Source of the DNA: a virus | Lineage: Duplodnaviria; Heunggongvirae; Uroviricota; Caudoviricetes | Virus record (IMG/VR): IMGVR_UViG_3300009709_000002 | Coordinates: 32,001 to 96,000 of that record | DNA: 64,000 bases | Reading direction: 5' to 3' (one strand) | Part shown: positions 38,287 through 43,959 of the stretch, in pieces | Numbering within the stretch: position 1 is the first letter of the stretch | Layout: each line of letters begins with the position of its first letter | Notes under the pieces: generated by a model | Databases searched by the model: none | Told to the model about the DNA's origin: nothing | Seen by the model: the letters and a program-made list of their open reading frames with translations, nothing else | Program-made: the position numbers and the translations under genes

Positions 38287-40986
38287 ATGAATTTAACTTT
38301 CCGTCAAGGTATTGTCAAATCACTAACCAACAATAATCAAGCTGCGGCTTTTTTAACGTCTTCTGGTTCTACTGTCAATATTTTGACAGAGGGTATTCCT
38401 GTTCTCATTACAGCTGCATACCAAACCGCTGACTACTTGGTGCAGATTCCGACAGACGTTCCAAATGCTTGGGGTCCATTCCAGTGGAATCCAATGTGGG
38501 GTCTTCAGCCAACCCAGACGAACTACTACATGTATTGGGACATCAATGTCGCTAATGGGTTGGTGACTCGTTCATATACGCCTCGTCAACCGTTCTATGG
38601 CCAGATTGCTCCATCACAGCCGCTAGACGATCAACATTGGTTCGACACCAATAACAACATCATGTACGTCTGGAACGGCATGACGTGGGTACAGAAGATT
38701 AGAGTGTTTGCTGGTTGTGTTTCAACCCAAAGTGGCCTGATCACCTACTCATTTGGTAGTCAAGTTGGTATCAGCTCTGGCACTCCAATCTACAATGCTG
38801 GTTACATCCTTTACGGGCCAGACCAGAAAGCCGTCAAAACATCTAGCGGATTGCTGGTCTCATCAACAACCGACATCAGCACCTACATCGGTAATTTCAG
38901 CTCGCCTGTTCAGCTAGAGCTTTTGGCGACTGATTCAATCGCGATGGAGCCGATTCCAGCGTACTACGCCGTAACGATCACCGGAAATGCTCAAATCAAT
39001 CTTGCTCAACCAAATGACAACAGCTCCAGAGCTGTTGGTCTAGCAGCTACAGATTGTATTGTTGGTCAAACAACAAAGATTATCACCCACGGCGCTGTTT
39101 ACAATGACCAGTGGAATTGGGACATCACTCTTGGCAAGGATCTTTACCTTGGTGAAAATGGCTCACTGTACCAAAGTCTTACGACGCCAAGTTCTACCGG
39201 AACTCAACGTGTAGCAACGATTCTCGCAACAAATGCGGTGATCGTTGACATTGATACTTACAGTGGAAATGGAACATCTTCGGAAGCCACATCGGCTCTG
39301 TATCGTATTGTGACAACCGCTGCTGCGACTTATGATCTTACACCAACAGACTTGACAGGAACAACCTGGTTGCGAATGACCAGCGCTTCGGCTAATAGCG
39401 TGGTGCTGACAGATGCGGTGAATAATGCTGTGCCTGTAGGTTCATTCATCAAGATTAGACAGGCTGGCGCTGGTACTACCACAATTATCCCAGCTGGCTC
39501 TGACATCTCAATTCTTCCTCCAACGATGTTGACGTCGAGCGCGCAATACACGACGTTTACTTTGGTTAAGGTAGATGCTCAGACTTGGGACATTGAAAAT
39601 GATCTAAGCACAAATTCACCAACTCCAACTCTAAGCGTGCTGTCTGTGGATGACATCACGGTTATTCCTATCACCACCATCGTAACAACTCCGTCAGTTA
39701 TTTCAATCAATGACATTACAGTTGTCCCGGTGGTAATTAGCGGCGGTCTACCAGTAGTAGCGATTAACGATGTCACGGTTGTTCCAGCTATCGTTTCTGG
39801 CGGAGGCACCGCATCAGGCTACTACTCAACTTCAGGCAATCAGATCATTGACAGCGTGGGTAACAACGTTCGTCTGAAGAGCGTCAACTGGTTCGGTGGT
39901 GAAGGGACTAACTACATTCCTAACGGCTTGTGGCAAGTAAGCTATCAATCATTGCTCGATGATATAGCTTCTATGGGCTTTAACACGATCCGTATGCCGA
40001 TCTCTGGTGATACGTTCACGACTGGTCAAGTAGCTGGTGGTATCAACACTGCGGTCAACGCAAGCTTTACGACAGATGGAACCACACCTAAGACGGTTGT
40101 AGAGATCTTTGACATCATTGTTAATTATGCTGGTGAACTTGGTCTTAAGATCATCTTTGATCACCACCAACAAACCGCTGCTGGTCAGAAAGATGGTCAG
40201 CCTTTCGGTGGATCTGGATCAGCATACACGGAACAAGATTGGATCAACACCTGGACGTACATCGCTACGCATTATGGCACGAATCCAACAGTCATCGGTG
40301 CTGACTTGCACAATGAACCTTACAACCTGACTTGGGCTGAATGGTCTTCACAGGCTGCTACTTGCGCTGCTGCAATTCAAGCAATTGCTCCAGATTGGCT
40401 GATCATTGTTGAAGGTGTTGGAACCTCGGCGACTGGTGCATCATATTGGTGGGGTGGTCAGTTGGCAGACGTAGCAAATGCTCCGCTCACACTTACTGTT
40501 CCACATAAGCTGGTTTACTCGCCTCATGAATATGGTCAATCGGTTGGTACACAATCTTGGCTCGCTACAGATTCAACTCCGGTGACAAACTATCCAAATA
40601 ACTTGTATAATGTTTGGAATGCGGCATGGGGCTTCATTTTTGAAAATAACATTGGCCCGATCTGGGTTGGTGAATTCGGCGGTAAGTTTGGTGTTGATGG
40701 ATCTGGTGCAGAAGATCCAACTTACGCTCCGAATTCAAGTGAAGAAATTCTGTGGGTCAATAACTTGATGAAGTATATGAACGGGGACTTCACCGGTTCT
40801 GGTACAAGCCAACTTTCTGGTTCAGAGCAGGGTATCTCATTCTCGTACTGGTGCTATAACCCGAACAGCGGCGATACTGGTGGCTTGGTCGAAGATGATT
40901 GGGTAACACATCAGACTGTCAAGCTTAATCTGCTTCAAAATGGTGGCTTGATTACGCCAGTCACTATCACTCCACCGTCATCCTAA
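38287..40986 (+). CDS. FRQG-head virion protein with C-terminal GH5 endoglucanase (cellulase)
   Basis: VNWFG.E, GFNTIRMP, DHH, DLHNEP (acid/base), WWGG.L, YSPHEYG, VGEFGG (nucleophile), YW.YNPNSGDTGG. Confidence 0.9.
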   Translation: MNLTFRQGIVKSLTNNNQAAAFLTSSGSTVNILTEGIPVLITAAYQTADYLVQIPTDVPNAWGPFQWNPMWGLQPTQTNYYMYWDINVANGLVTRSYTPRQPFYGQIAPSQPLDDQHWFDTNNNIMYVWNGMTWVQKIRVFAGCVSTQSGLITYSFGSQVGISSGTPIYNAGYILYGPDQKAVKTSSGLLVSSTTDISTYIGNFSSPVQLELLATDSIAMEPIPAYYAVTITGNAQINLAQPNDNSSRAVGLAATDCIVGQTTKIITHGAVYNDQWNWDITLGKDLYLGENGSLYQSLTTPSSTGTQRVATILATNAVIVDIDTYSGNGTSSEATSALYRIVTTAAATYDLTPTDLTGTTWLRMTSASANSVVLTDAVNNAVPVGSFIKIRQAGAGTTTIIPAGSDISILPPTMLTSSAQYTTFTLVKVDAQTWDIENDLSTNSPTPTLSVLSVDDITVIPITTIVTTPSVISINDITVVPVVISGGLPVVAINDVTVVPAIVSGGGTASGYYSTSGNQIIDSVGNNVRLKSVNWFGGEGTNYIPNGLWQVSYQSLLDDIASMGFNTIRMPISGDTFTTGQVAGGINTAVNASFTTDGTTPKTVVEIFDIIVNYAGELGLKIIFDHHQQTAAGQKDGQPFGGSGSAYTEQDWINTWTYIATHYGTNPTVIGADLHNEPYNLTWAEWSSQAATCAAAIQAIAPDWLIIVEGVGTSATGASYWWGGQLADVANAPLTLTVPHKLVYSPHEYGQSVGTQSWLATDSTPVTNYPNNLYNVWNAAWGFIFENNIGPIWVGEFGGKFGVDGSGAEDPTYAPNSSEEILWVNNLMKYMNGDFTGSGTSQLSGSEQGISFSYWCYNPNSGDTGGLVEDDWVTHQTVKLNLLQNGGLITPVTITPPSS

Positions 40987-41067
40987 TGCATAGGATCAAT
41001 TTATTTTGCTCCTATGTCAGCTAATAAATAGTACCATAGATTTTAGGCACCCTAATAAAGGAACTTT

Positions 41068-43959
41068 ATGTCAACAACAGCAATCTTTACGGTTACGCTT
41101 GCGCCAGCTTCTGCCAGTGTAGTGACTGTTAATTATGCTACCCAAGACGGTACAGCGAAGGCAGGTACGAATTACACTGCAACGTCTGGCACGCTTACAT
41201 TCCAGCCTGGTGATACTACGAAGACCGTTTCGGTTGTTGTGGCAGACATCGGCACCAATCAGCCAACAGAAGCATTCACTTTGGTGCTTACCACGCCATC
41301 TGGTGCTACTCTTGGTAAAGCGTCAGGTACGTGTACTATCACAGGTAGTGAAGGAACAGGCACGATCACGGTCTGGGGTCCACTTATTGATAATGGCCTG
41401 ATCACCAACGCATATCAGTTCCAAGCTGGTCGTGGTGATTACTTCCACGCAAACTCTGGTACGACGGAAGGTCAGTTCATCATGATCAATGCCGCTTACC
41501 TTGCTTACAACACTTTGTCTCCATTGACAAGTGATGCAACATCGCAAAATTCGGCAACTTTCTATCATAACCTTGCAGCACAGATGCTTGACGCAATGGG
41601 TAATGGAACAACGTCAACACCAATTCTGCGTCAACCGATTCCAACCAATCCAGATACGATCTGCTTGCTGCACTGGCTGTTCGCTGCTAAGGGGCCAGTT
41701 CCACTGCAAGCATATAACTTGACGTACTTGGCTACGCTGACGAATGGTAAGTTGACAATTCCAGTGAGTGATACAACATCGCACGCTGCGGACACGTTCA
41801 ACGTTTGGCAGATTTATCCAGCTACATCGACTCTGTTGTACGCATCCCCTTACTCTCCAGTAATTGGTGGTGGCGGTATCACGATCACATCTAGCATGTG
41901 GACGTTTGACTCAAACAATAACGTCATTATTACACCTCCTGCTGGTACGGCCGCTGGTTCGTACAATATCGTGTACGGCTATGGTAATGCTGCAACGCTT
42001 CCACAAGGCGATGCATATGAAGCTTATCCAGTTTGGACAGCAATTCCTGATGGTTACGCAGCTTGCGCGCCAGATACATTCCGCTGGTTTGACCAAGCTA
42101 TCAACAATGCTATTGCTCTTGATACTCGCTCAGGTAACTCCACCAAGTGGACTCAGCTTCGTGATGCAATGCGCATGACTTCTGTCAATGGTCAAAACCT
42201 GACCGATCTTCGTCAAGTTTTTGAACCACTACCAGGCATTGGCGTATTTGATCCAAGCGCTCGCTCGGGTATGTTCTGCTACTCGAATAGAACTGGTGCT
42301 CTTCCACCGTCAGACCCAACGCTTAACCAAGCATGGACTGGTTACAACTTCTTCTCACTTGACACTACGAGCCCGAACGGCGCAGGTCTTGGCGACATTA
42401 TTTGTACTGTTCCGACGACTGGTACAACAGGTGAGCAAGTTCAGCTTGGTCGTGGTATTTCTGACTCATGGCGTGGTCAAATTCTAGCTTCTGACGGTGT
42501 GTCGATCATCCAAGAACCAGACCAGTACTTGTACGTTCAATGCAGCTGCTCAGTTGTTCCGACTGGTTCAGAAGTGTTTGAAGTTTTCGTATCAAGCACA
42601 TCTGATTATGAAAATGCAACTCGTTGGTACTGCAATATCGGTGCTTACGCTAACTTCGTTGCAACACCAACAGCATCAGGCAACGTCATCACTTTCCTGG
42701 TGCCGCAGTCTGACCTGAAGAACAAAAACGGTTCTAACACGCCAATTCCACTTGGCACGACGATTCTGAACTTCGGCTTTAACAGCGAAATTGAAGAACC
42801 ACACTCGTTCCGTATCCGTGCGATGCGTATCGTTTCAGGCCCTTCACAATCTTGGGTTCAGGCTAACCTGGCTGAAGCTGCTGGTGGTTATGGTACTCTG
42901 CCATACTTCCCAGGTGCAATGCCGTTCGCAGTTAATGCTGACCTGGTCAATCAACAGTTCGTCGGCTATAATGGCAACCCGTTCCATGGTTACCAAGGCC
43001 CAGACTACTGGTTGGATCGTGTTAATGAGGCTGTGACAGTTCACGGTACGCTGACGTCACAAGATCTTCCTTGCGCTCAGATTACTGCCCATGGCGCATC
43101 GCTTGGTGGTGGTATGATCTATCCGATATCGTTGACTAACCAGAACGGGGTAGCAAAACCAACTCACCTGCTGCTGATGGAACAACAAGTTCGCTTCTTG
43201 GCTGATGCTCAGACAGCTTACAACACTCACGGCGGTCAGCTTGGTCCGTTCGCTCACACATTCGTTCTGAATACTCCAGCTCGTTTCAACATCGGATCAC
43301 CTCCGATCAATACTTGGGTTTACACGAACGACGATCCGAACACTCAGTGGATTGGTTACCAGTGCCGTCCGGTTGAAGCTCTTTGTAACGCCGCTTACCA
43401 GACATACTCAACGACTCAGTCGACGAACCAGGCGCAAGACGTTTACAACATGTGCTTGAGCATCGCTACGACGTGGCTCACATGGTTGAACAACTACTGG
43501 CCAAACCTGAACGGTATCGAGTATACTGACCCAGTGCTCGGCCAGCTGCTGCTCAAGGGTATGCCAACGAATTATCCGGATCCAACCATCAGTGCTCCGA
43601 CAACGACATATGATGAACCACACGGGCCAGCGCTGATTATTCGTGCATGTATGTGGTTGAAGTTGATCAACGTCAACTCCGCAACAAACACGCTGTGCGA
43701 TGCACTGATGACTCGCTGCTGGGAATACATGGAAACGCAATACCAGCTGACTGGTGATATGCAATACACTTGGTCACCGATTCCTTCGCAACACAACTGG
43801 TATGGTTTCTGGCACGGTGAAATCATCACGACGATTGCTCGTTTGGCAACAATCGGTTCATCGATTCTGCCAGCTGGTATTCCACTCGCTACGCTTCAGC
43901 TTCGTCTTAACCAGACTGAATCGTGGCTGCTCAATACTGGTGTTGTGACAAGCGGCTAA
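41068..43959 (+). CDS. Calx-beta domain (lacking first strand) plus putative GH8-like glycoside hydrolase
   Basis: FTVTL..AS..VTVNYAT.DGTA.AG..YTATSGTLTF.PG.T.KT; GTTEGQ resembles the GH8 TSEGQ catalytic motif. Confidence 0.6.
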   Translation: MSTTAIFTVTLAPASASVVTVNYATQDGTAKAGTNYTATSGTLTFQPGDTTKTVSVVVADIGTNQPTEAFTLVLTTPSGATLGKASGTCTITGSEGTGTITVWGPLIDNGLITNAYQFQAGRGDYFHANSGTTEGQFIMINAAYLAYNTLSPLTSDATSQNSATFYHNLAAQMLDAMGNGTTSTPILRQPIPTNPDTICLLHWLFAAKGPVPLQAYNLTYLATLTNGKLTIPVSDTTSHAADTFNVWQIYPATSTLLYASPYSPVIGGGGITITSSMWTFDSNNNVIITPPAGTAAGSYNIVYGYGNAATLPQGDAYEAYPVWTAIPDGYAACAPDTFRWFDQAINNAIALDTRSGNSTKWTQLRDAMRMTSVNGQNLTDLRQVFEPLPGIGVFDPSARSGMFCYSNRTGALPPSDPTLNQAWTGYNFFSLDTTSPNGAGLGDIICTVPTTGTTGEQVQLGRGISDSWRGQILASDGVSIIQEPDQYLYVQCSCSVVPTGSEVFEVFVSSTSDYENATRWYCNIGAYANFVATPTASGNVITFLVPQSDLKNKNGSNTPIPLGTTILNFGFNSEIEEPHSFRIRAMRIVSGPSQSWVQANLAEAAGGYGTLPYFPGAMPFAVNADLVNQQFVGYNGNPFHGYQGPDYWLDRVNEAVTVHGTLTSQDLPCAQITAHGASLGGGMIYPISLTNQNGVAKPTHLLLMEQQVRFLADAQTAYNTHGGQLGPFAHTFVLNTPARFNIGSPPINTWVYTNDDPNTQWIGYQCRPVEALCNAAYQTYSTTQSTNQAQDVYNMCLSIATTWLTWLNNYWPNLNGIEYTDPVLGQLLLKGMPTNYPDPTISAPTTTYDEPHGPALIIRACMWLKLINVNSATNTLCDALMTRCWEYMETQYQLTGDMQYTWSPIPSQHNWYGFWHGEIITTIARLATIGSSILPAGIPLATLQLRLNQTESWLLNTGVVTSG

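What the first reader, a model, noticed from the sequence alone, without database searches (positions are those of the whole stretch)
39620..41360. Candidate virion 'mini-cellulosome' assembled by donor-strand complementation of a split Calx-beta domain
Seen: ORF 41068 starts at STTAIFTVTL and contains a Calx-beta domain except its first beta-strand (usual pattern P.lSI.D.TV.EG). The upstream GH5 fibre carries three tandem copies of that strand-like segment in its linker: LSVLSVDDITV, PSVISINDITV and PVVAINDVTV (~39630-39790, 19-20 aa period), with no Calx-beta body after them. Inference: the virion-anchored GH5 protein donates strands to dock up to three copies of the 963-aa protein, whose GTTEGQ motif resembles GH8 TSEGQ. 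That would give a multi-enzyme glucanase appendage, mechanistically like pilus donor-strand exchange. I know of no description of this in phages.
Basis: partly seen in the sequence, partly recalled or inferred. Interest (0 to 1): 0.85.

Follow-up and report, generated by a model that had tools for sequence, protein, structure and literature searches.

The report
Split Calx-beta docking of phage cellulases
A giant phage carries a cellulase-tipped fibre bearing three short peptides that look exactly like the one strand missing from the first domain of the neighbouring enzyme. The same peptide-plus-incomplete-domain pairing recurs in many unrelated phages, so it is probably a plug-and-socket way of hanging enzymes on the tail, although binding itself is not yet shown.

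Summary
ORF 41068-43959 (963 aa) begins at strand B of a Calx-beta domain, and no upstream frame can supply strand A. The GH5 fibre gene (38287-40986) carries three 20-aa-spaced peptides. Scored with a strand-A matrix built from unrelated Calx-beta repeats, they rank 1, 3 and 4 among about 149,000 positions of the 360-kb phage genome.

- 87 of the 120 best homologues of the 963-aa protein start with the same strand-A-less domain. None has strand A.
- Orphan strand-A peptides lie within 6 kb of such acceptor genes in 4 of 6 lineages chosen through the acceptor. All six lineages chosen through a GH5 donor motif have an acceptor within two genes.
- These lineages include P2-like, N4-like (among them the cellulose-dependent Erwinia phage S6), Vequintavirinae and Bcep22-like phages.
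- A 113-129-aa protein family combines the acceptor with one or two C-terminal donor strands.

Structure prediction of the complex gave no verdict, so docking remains an inference (about 0.5). One jumbo contig has three acceptors and no detectable donor.

The GH5 plus Calx-beta enzyme gene pair is already known from phage S6. The docking mechanism was not found in the literature searched. This scan earlier flagged incomplete Calx-beta connectors and domains split between neighbouring tail genes on other DNA (e1-327595, e1-5360414).

The parts
38287..40986 (+). GH5 endoglucanase fibre gene (899 aa): N-terminal fibre-attachment domain, small beta domain, donor linker, GH5 head
   Evidence: ORF and translation. 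Pfam Cellulase 1.7e-40. PHROG hydrolase and tail protein. The catalytic NEP and GEFG motifs are visible in the translation.
38287..39300 (+). N-terminal attachment domain (starts M-x-L-x-F-R-Q-G), shared with four paralogous fibre genes of the genome
   Evidence: The same N-terminus occurs on ORFs 30469, 33928 and 44056 of the window and on one more outside it. The paralogues hit tail-fibre PHROGs. The domain end is approximate.
39631..39663 (+). Orphan strand-A-like peptide 1 (residues 449-459)
   Evidence: PSSM 12.1 bits, rank 4 of about 149,000 genome positions.
39691..39723 (+). Orphan strand-A-like peptide 2 (residues 469-479)
   Evidence: PSSM 12.8 bits, rank 3.
39751..39780 (+). Orphan strand-A-like peptide 3 (residues 489-498)
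   Evidence: PSSM 15.7 bits, rank 1.
39877..40869 (+). GH5 catalytic domain (residues 531-861)
   Evidence: Pfam PF00150, 139.7 bits.
41068..43959 (+). 963-aa tail enzyme gene with an N-terminal adaptor; Shine-Dalgarno-like AAGGAA lies 5 nt upstream of the ATG
   Evidence: PHROG 2871 tail protein, 2.2e-111. AF2 model pLDDT 90.
41074..41346 (+). Strand-A-less Calx-beta domain (residues 3-93, strands B-G), followed by a low-confidence tether (residues 94-100)
   Evidence: Pfam profile positions 22-100 of 119. Own HMM positions 30-126 of 135. AF2 gives six strands with pLDDT 77-97, then pLDDT below 50 at residues 94-100. Foldseek TM 0.72-0.75 to solved Calx-beta domains.
41368..43956 (+). Catalytic body: (alpha/alpha)6-type barrel with beta insertions, and the G-T-T-E-G-Q motif at residues 131-136
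   Evidence: Foldseek finds GH48 structures (5vma, 7kw6, 4fus) at probability 1.0, but with low TM (0.21-0.25 by query, 0.29-0.33 by target) and rmsd about 17 A. The motif is nearly invariant in the family. There is no Pfam hit.

Best explanation
Genes 38287-40986 and 41068-43959 form a two-enzyme tail cassette.

The first protein is a virion fibre. It has the attachment domain shared by the phage's other fibres, a 70-aa linker and a GH5 endoglucanase head. The second is a GH48-like (alpha/alpha)6 enzyme. It has no fibre-attachment domain. Its only N-terminal module is a Calx-beta sandwich that lacks its first strand, joined to the body by a flexible tether.

The most likely mechanism is as follows. 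The incomplete sandwich is the socket. One of the three strand-A-like peptides in the GH5 linker is the plug. The peptide completes the sandwich in trans by beta-strand complementation. The second enzyme then hangs on the GH5 fibre, giving an endo-plus-processive glucanase appendage aimed at host cellulose or a related beta-glucan.

Shown: the domain architecture, the exact strand deficit, the strand-A character of the peptides, and their recurrence together in other phages.

Inferred: that the peptides actually bind the domain, the stoichiometry, the substrate, and the virion location.
For: (1) The exact deficit is conserved. 87 of the 120 best homologues begin at HMM position 30-35 within residues 3-6, and none has strand A. 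The other 32 carry a different N-terminal module or none. Some sit at the distal-tail-protein position right after the tape measure in siphoviruses. The N-terminus is therefore the exchangeable attachment module.

(2) The same strand-A-less adaptor heads unrelated cargo:
- true GH48 enzymes (PF02011, 3e-209);
- sialidase or EPS-depolymerase spikes of Parlo and PEp14;
- collagen-like fibres.

(3) The GH5 peptides are the best strand-A matches in the whole genome.

(4) Orphan strand-A peptides, often in tandem with a 15-20-aa period and Pro/Gly/acidic spacers, occur upstream of the GH5 domain in many phage GH5 homologues. There are 35 hits of 11 bits or more in 91,501 positions, against 1 in 147,131 background positions. 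Other Calx strands are enriched 8-fold or less.

(5) Context.
- In six further loci chosen for a GH5 donor motif (L009-L012, L019, L020), an acceptor gene lies within two genes downstream.
- In six lineages chosen through the acceptor, four have a hit of 11.5 bits or more within 6 kb, where about 0.05 is expected per locus.
- In Bcep22-like phages the candidate donor is instead the extreme C-terminus of the small tail-fibre protein. Its strand-A score varies (12.5 bits in Parlo, 8.8 in LASTA, below 9 in PEp14 and below 8.5 in SopranoGao); what is shared is a C-terminal I/V-S/T-D-A core.
- In L019 there are two donors and two acceptors.

(6) Hena1_01620 and four relatives (113-129 aa) are an acceptor domain followed by one or two C-terminal donor strands. 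The donor is their most conserved segment.

(7) In the AF2 model the Calx module is a separate, confident domain on a low-confidence tether.

(8) Phage S6, which has this gene pair, needs bacterial cellulose as its first receptor (PMC9544554).
Against: No physical or structural evidence of binding exists.

A 237-kb jumbo contig has three consecutive acceptor proteins next to a GH5 gene but no strand-A match of 10.5 bits or more in the 33 kb read. Acceptors can therefore exist without a recognisable nearby donor.

GH5 and acceptor genes are syntenic even where the GH5 protein has no donor (Parlo, PEp14, LASTA). Adjacency alone therefore does not prove that the peptides are the contact.

The strand-A matrix also picks up first strands of ordinary Ig-like (ASH/DUF1573) domains. 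The single S6 motif may be one of these.

In this window the spacers between the peptides are themselves hydrophobic and beta-prone. The linker might therefore fold on itself or zip the fibre trimer.

Three donors face only one acceptor gene in this genome.
Confidence: 0.5

Rival explanations
1. The strand-A-less Calx-beta module is an attachment domain, but it binds some other tail or baseplate component through a conventional surface. The three peptides in the GH5 linker are then a structural element of the fibre itself (a trimer-zipping or beta-rich spacer), or surviving duplicates of the first strand of a Calx-beta domain that once preceded GH5.
For: Some GH5 homologues do carry a complete Calx-beta domain in front of GH5, one of them preceded by two extra strand copies (P0318, P0346). 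That gives an evolutionary source for leftover strands. The window's spacers are hydrophobic. The jumbo contig L008 has acceptors without donors. A fourth strand-A-like site of the genome lies in a structural protein beside the baseplate wedge gene.
Against: Leftover strands would decay. Instead they score as well as genuine strands (up to 17.6 bits). They are duplicated in tandem in independent lineages, sit at extreme C-termini after Pro-rich tethers in others, and are the most conserved part of the mini-proteins. A purely structural role would not explain why the matching deficit is always in a neighbouring gene.
Confidence: 0.3
2. The 963-aa protein is not virion-bound. It is a soluble enzyme released at lysis or acting in the cell, and its Calx-beta module serves as a carbohydrate- or calcium-binding module.
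For: No virion proteomics is available. Calx-beta domains in bacterial surface proteins are common, and some bind calcium (own knowledge).
Against: The gene sits inside the fibre cluster. PHROG 2871 is a tail protein family. Homologous bodies are fused at the distal-tail-protein position behind the tape measure. The same adaptor heads collagen fibres and tailspike depolymerases. A binding module would not need to lose precisely its first strand in 87 of 87 cases.
Confidence: 0.1
3. The resemblance is a coincidence: a Val/Ile/Thr-rich repeat that happens to look like a beta strand.
For: Short beta-strand motifs are low in information. The three copies are repeats of one another, so they count as one event.
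Against: The genome-wide rank is 1, 3 and 4 with a matrix derived from unrelated proteins. The pairing recurs in independent phage lineages.
Confidence: 0.03

Closest known systems
Erwinia phage vB_EamP-S6 gp095 (GH5 cellulase) and gp094 (Calx-beta + GH48), with bacterial cellulose as first receptor (PMC9544554)
   Same: Adjacent tail genes encode a GH5 enzyme followed by an enzyme whose N-terminus is a Calx-beta domain. In S6 too the domain starts at strand B.
   Different: The S6 partner is a true GH48, whereas the window's body has no GH48 sequence signal. S6 has one uncertain donor motif inside a region of Ig-like domains, whereas the window has three clear orphan copies. The paper notes the Calx-beta domain but neither its missing strand nor a docking role.
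Anchor-branch receptor-binding-protein systems (G7C gp66/gp63.1; K1-5/SP6 adaptor with 7- or 11-residue N-terminal peptides; Klebsiella phages; PMC6872550)
   Same: [quoted passage not shown] Short conserved peptides mediate the attachment.
   Different: In those systems the peptide is on the branch and the folded T4gp10-like domain is on the anchor. Here the branch carries an incomplete folded domain and the anchor carries the peptide(s). No T4gp10-like domain was detected.
Donor-strand complementation and exchange in chaperone-usher pili (own knowledge)
   Same: An Ig-like sandwich lacks one strand and would be completed by a strand from another polypeptide. The mini-proteins with an acceptor plus a terminal donor resemble pilins in logic.
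   Different: Pilins lack the C-terminal G strand and donate an N-terminal extension. Here the N-terminal A strand is missing, and donors are internal linker repeats or C-terminal tails. There is no chaperone or usher and no homology.
Cellulosome cohesin-dockerin assembly (own knowledge)
   Same: The idea is the same: several glucanases gathered on one scaffold through repeated docking sites.
   Different: No cohesin or dockerin modules are present. The docking elements here would be about 10-residue strands, not folded calcium-binding modules.
Tail modules of Pavtokvirus, Lastavirus and Parlovirus (PEp14, LASTA, SopranoGao, Parlo)
   Same: They hold full-length homologues of the 963-aa protein (41-44% identity) with the same strand-A-less start, next to a GH5 gene.
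   Different: Their GH5 proteins lack donor peptides. A strand-A-like tail ends the small tail-fibre protein instead, and a second acceptor-headed spike is present.

Membership tests
Calx-beta domain (PF03160) | Profile match above the curated cut-off | tested here: met
   60.6 bits against a cut-off of 27. The structural match to solved Calx-beta domains has TM 0.72-0.75.
Calx-beta domain (PF03160) | Complete seven-strand sandwich including strand A | tested here: not met
   Profile positions 1-21 are absent and no upstream coding sequence exists. The AF2 model has six strands.
Glycoside hydrolase family 5 | Pfam PF00150 match and the two catalytic glutamates (NEP acid/base, GEFG-type nucleophile) | tested here: met
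   139.7 bits. Both motifs can be read in the translation.
Glycoside hydrolase family 48 | Sequence membership (PF02011) | tested here: not met
   No Pfam hit for residues 100-963 at E up to 10. The profile comparison with a true phage GH48 aligns only the Calx module. Similarity is at fold level only.
Glycoside hydrolase family 8 | Sequence membership (Pfam GH8 profile match); the T-S-E-G-Q-type catalytic-acid motif was recalled from memory, not tested | tested here: not met
   No Pfam family, GH8 included, matched residues 100-963 at E up to 10. A nearly invariant G-T-S-E-G-Q exists in the family, but the GH8 motif itself was not checked against a GH8 sequence, and a role for the glutamate is untested.
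Chaperone-usher donor-strand complementation | Missing C-terminal G strand, N-terminal donor extension, periplasmic chaperone and usher | tested here: not met
   The missing strand is the N-terminal one. Donors are internal or C-terminal. This is an analogy of mechanism only.
Cellulosome (cohesin-dockerin) | Cohesin and dockerin modules | tested here: not met
   No such Pfam families in either protein.
Anchor-branch RBP system with T4gp10-like docking domain | T4gp10-like domain on the anchored protein | tested here: inconclusive
   Pfam and PHROG found none in residues 1-440 of the GH5 fibre. No HHpred-type search was possible.
Proposed split Calx-beta docking pair | Physical completion of the sandwich by the orphan strand | not testable with these tools
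   The one complex job returned no verdict. It needs binding assays or a structure.

The most novel reading that the evidence does not exclude
A portable split-domain connector may be at work. The parts are a strand-A-less Calx-beta socket and a plug of about 10 residues, the strand-A peptide. At least six unrelated phage lineages (jumbo, P2-like, N4-like, Vequintavirinae, Bcep22-like and SU10-adaptor podoviruses) would use it to hang glucanases, depolymerases and collagen fibres on their tails. Tandem plugs would set valency. Small socket-plus-plug proteins could extend or cap the chain as pilins do.
Probability: 0.4. Interest if true: 0.85.

Novelty: new variant of a known kind. Interest (0 to 1): 0.72.

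Why it matters
If it is real, this is a simple, sequence-readable rule for how secondary enzymes and fibres are mounted on phage tails. One would look for an N-terminal Calx-beta domain that starts at strand B, and for matching orphan strands in neighbouring tail proteins.

Three things would follow. It would explain how enzymes without an anchor domain, including the GH48 of the cellulose-dependent phage S6 and the EPS depolymerase of PEp14, reach the virion. It would allow the architecture and valency of receptor-binding complexes to be predicted from genomes. It would also offer a small peptide tag and socket for modular engineering of phage host range in laboratory strains. Finally, it would extend donor-strand complementation, so far a hallmark of pilus assembly, to virus assembly.

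Tried and rejected
- Complex prediction. Residues 1-100 of the 963-aa protein, with an 86-row alignment, were folded against residues 440-512 of the GH5 fibre. ipSAE was 0.22, under the mark of 0.32, and the controls were not run. This is no verdict and is not used as evidence either way.
- AF2 of the 117-aa socket-plus-plug protein (P0405). The C-terminal segment is drawn as a strand next to the last strand, but at pLDDT about 50. This is uninformative.
- Exhaustive representative search with residues 1-100. It was swamped by giant multi-repeat bacterial proteins. It served only as a source for the strand-A matrix.
- No close relatives were found by megablast against phages or by a pattern scan of viral contigs.
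- TRF found no DNA-level tandem repeat.
- A mis-called start, a frameshift or gene fission was considered and rejected. The frame opens three codons upstream. The other frames of the spacer hold nothing strand-like. In GH5 proteins the donors lie N-terminal to the GH5 domain, not at the gene junction.
- A Pfam search of the body and a PDB sequence search returned only Calx-beta matches.
- Literature searches found nothing on this mechanism. The terms were donor strand or strand complementation with tail fibres or tailspikes, and Calx-beta in phage tails.
- The N-terminal V-T-V-x-x-I-D-D-I/L-P motif of the small proteins upstream of the homologue in Parlo, PEp14 and SopranoGao was noted as a possible second donor. 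It does not score with the matrix and was not pursued.
Full report
WHAT IS THERE

The window is positions 32001-96000 of a 360,227-bp phage genome with direct terminal repeats. Positions 30469-52711 are a + strand block of fibre genes. Four of them (30469, 33928, 38287, 44056), and a fifth elsewhere in the genome, start with the same attachment domain, M-x-L-x-F-R-Q-G. Several continue into long collagen-like repeats that hit tail-fibre PHROGs.

The gene at 38287-40986 has this order of parts:
- the attachment domain;
- a small beta domain;
- a 70-residue linker;
- a GH5 catalytic domain (Pfam 1.7e-40, residues 531-861), with both catalytic motifs readable.

The next gene, 41068-43959, is the only one of the block without the attachment domain.

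CHECKING THE OBSERVATION

The 963-aa product matches Pfam Calx-beta over residues 3-80, which correspond to profile positions 22-100 of 119. The reading frame opens only three codons before the ATG, which has a Shine-Dalgarno-like AAGGAA upstream. Nothing strand-like is encoded in any frame of the 81-bp spacer. This is the only Calx-beta match in the genome.

To test the claimed resemblance of the linker peptides independently of the window, I proceeded as follows.
- I took the 150 best representatives found with residues 1-100. All are large bacterial proteins with tandem Calx-beta repeats.
- I located 2,648 full repeats in them.
- I built an HMM from 500 of these repeats, including the 24 residues upstream of each. 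The consensus upstream of the point where the phage protein starts is P-T-L-S-I-S-D-A-S-V-T-E-G.

A log-odds matrix of the ten strand-A columns was slid over all open frames of 100 aa or more in the genome, about 149,000 positions. The three linker peptides rank 1, 3 and 4 (15.7, 12.8 and 12.1 bits). The three copies are repeats of each other and count as one event.

THE DEFICIT IS A CONSERVED ARCHITECTURE

Among the 120 best homologues of the 963-aa protein, 87 begin with the Calx-beta domain at HMM position 30-35 within their first six residues. None has strand A. The other 32 have a different N-terminal module or none. In two siphovirus contexts the gene (1,245 and 1,488 aa) sits directly behind the tape-measure gene, at the distal-tail-protein position. 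The N-terminus is thus an exchangeable virion-attachment module.

The same strand-A-less start heads other cargo:
- the sialidase-like spike of Parlo and the EPS depolymerase of PEp14;
- true GH48 enzymes;
- two collagen-like fibres of a 237-kb contig.

DONORS ELSEWHERE

The 120 best homologues of the GH5 region hold many strand-A matches upstream of GH5 that are not followed by a Calx-beta body. They often come in tandem with a 15-20-residue period and acidic or proline-rich spacers.

As a control, I applied matrices for every other part of the domain to the same proteins. The strand-A window gives 35 hits of 11 bits or more in 91,501 positions, against 1 in 147,131 background positions. Other windows are enriched 8-fold or less. 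These counts are not phylogenetically independent. Some hits are first strands of ASH/DUF1573 domains.

Gene contexts are summarised below.

Loci chosen because the GH5 protein has the motif:

| Locus | Phage type | Donor(s) | Acceptor(s) |
|---|---|---|---|
| L009 | P2-like prophage of Azotobacter | in GH5 | within two genes downstream |
| L010 | N4-like | in GH5 | within two genes downstream |
| L011 | podovirus with SU10-type adaptor | in GH5 | within two genes downstream |
| L012 | not classified | in GH5 | within two genes downstream |
| L019 | not classified here | one in GH5, one at the extreme C-terminus of a 427-aa protein | two |
| L020 | N4-like | in GH5 | within two genes downstream |

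Loci chosen through the acceptor:

| Phage | Donor(s) | Other features |
|---|---|---|
| S6 | one motif in GH5 | possibly part of an Ig-like domain |
| Hena1 | two motifs in GH5 | see the mini-protein below |
| Parlo, PEp14, SopranoGao, LASTA | none in GH5 | the 121-122-aa tail-fibre protein ends in a tail with an I/V-S/T-D-A core after a Pro/Gly-rich tether; it scores 12.5 bits in Parlo, 8.8 in LASTA, under 9 in PEp14 and under 8.5 in SopranoGao |

Within 6 kb of the acceptor, four of six acceptor-chosen lineages have a match of 11.5 bits or more. About 0.05 is expected per locus.

The exception is the 237-kb contig. It has three consecutive acceptors beside a GH5 gene, and no match in the 33 kb I could read.

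SOCKET-PLUS-PLUG MINI-PROTEINS

Next to the Hena1 GH48 gene lies a 117-aa protein. It is a strand-A-less Calx-beta domain followed, after six residues, by a C-terminal strand-A peptide. Four relatives share this layout, and one of them carries two tandem C-terminal strands. The peptide is their most conserved segment. The logic resembles that of pilins. Such a protein could self-complement, polymerise head to tail, or bridge a donor on GH5 to another acceptor.

STRUCTURE PREDICTIONS

AF2 on the 963-aa protein (58-row alignment) gives pLDDT 90 and pTM 0.85. It shows a six-stranded N-terminal sandwich at residues 3-93, a tether with pLDDT below 50 at residues 94-100, and a large helical barrel with beta insertions.

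Foldseek matches the sandwich to solved Calx-beta domains (TM 0.72-0.75). It matches the body to GH48 structures and other (alpha/alpha)6 enzymes at probability about 1, but with low TM over the whole chain. By sequence the body is neither GH48 nor any Pfam family, and no solved relative exists. A G-T-S-E-G-Q motif is nearly invariant in the family.

The single complex prediction returned no verdict. The mini-protein model is too uncertain at its C-terminus to read.

WHAT IS KNOWN

A commentary on phage S6 (PMC9544554) describes gp095 (GH5, an experimentally verified cellulase) and gp094 (N-terminal Calx-beta plus GH48). It reports that bacterial cellulose is the first receptor of this phage. 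The gene pair and its probable target are therefore known. The missing strand and a docking role are not mentioned there.

Anchor-branch models of multi-enzyme receptor-binding complexes use short N-terminal peptides on the branch and a T4gp10-like domain on the anchor (PMC6872550). The polarity proposed here is the reverse.

Searches for strand complementation in phage tails found nothing. The library does not cover all journals.

Earlier notes of this scan on other genomes reached similar ideas: an incomplete Calx-beta domain as a tail connector in relatives of phi92 and rV5, and domains split between neighbouring tail genes in a temperate podovirus. I treat these as leads, not as support.

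MECHANISM AND CONFIDENCE

The best-supported reading has four parts.
- The GH5 fibre is anchored through its shared N-terminal domain.
- Its linker exposes three plugs.
- The 963-aa enzyme docks by completing its sandwich with one plug.
- The two enzymes act together on a host beta-glucan such as cellulose.

Architecture, strand identity and recurrence are shown. Binding, valency, substrate and virion location are inferred. I put the docking reading at about 0.5.

The main rival, at about 0.3, keeps the Calx module as an attachment domain but places its partner elsewhere. It treats the peptides as a fibre-internal structural repeat or as retained duplicates from an ancestral Calx-GH5 fusion. 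Three facts favour it: the hydrophobic spacers in this window, the donor-less jumbo contig, and the general GH5-acceptor synteny.

Against the stoichiometric claim, the genome has three plugs per chain (nine per trimeric fibre, if it is a trimer) but one acceptor gene.

Noticed in passing
outside the window: G000:C1:227084 (L018:11432-14284, 950-aa ORF): The second-best strand-A match of the genome (about 13.5-15 bits) lies in a virion structural protein. That gene is encoded two genes downstream of a baseplate wedge gene (phrog_10646). It could be an alternative or additional docking site for the 963-aa protein, or merely the first strand of an Ig-like domain.
   Followed up: partly
L017:8460-8813 (Erwinia phage Hena1_01620) and proteins P0405-P0409: A small protein family (113-129 aa) made of a strand-A-less Calx-beta domain plus one or two C-terminal strand-A peptides. 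The peptide is identical across members that are 70-87% identical overall.
   Followed up: partly
L001:11914-12282, L002:11893-12258, L013 and L014:11883-12248: The 121-122-aa 'tail fiber protein' of Parlo, PEp14, SopranoGao and LASTA ends, after a Pro/Gly-rich tether, in a strand-A-like tail with a conserved I/V-S/T-D-A core. Its matrix score ranges from 12.5 bits (Parlo) to below 8.5 (SopranoGao). Each of these phages encodes two acceptor-headed proteins.
   Followed up: partly
L007:517-12901 / L008:10001-22385 (237-kb metagenomic contig): Three consecutive genes (1593, 1502 and 966 aa) all start with the strand-A-less Calx-beta domain, and two continue into collagen-like fibres. They follow a GH5 gene that has a Big_2 domain instead of donor peptides. 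No donor was found in the 33 kb read.
   Followed up: partly
L015:10001-14467 and the place found: In siphoviruses the homologous enzyme body lacks the Calx module and sits directly behind the tape-measure gene, at the distal-tail-protein position, with no GH5 gene nearby.
   Followed up: no
L001:8688-8948, L002:8641-8937, L013:8676-8939: Small 86-98-aa, probably helical proteins lie just upstream of the homologue in Bcep22-like phages. They share an N-terminal V-T-V-x-x-I-D-D-I/L-P motif, which may be a second kind of plug.
   Followed up: no
window 30469-50643 and genome position 11881 (- strand): Five paralogous fibre genes share one N-terminal attachment domain of about 340 aa but have different distal parts (collagen-like repeats, GH5, S74-type ends). 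This implies many alternative fibres on one docking site.
   Followed up: no
window 39631-39800 compared with L004:3100-3260: In a relative that is 96-97% identical overall, the 70-aa donor linker differs at about 10 positions. Changes inside the three peptides keep or improve the strand-A consensus (third peptide 15.7 to 16.9 bits).
   Followed up: partly
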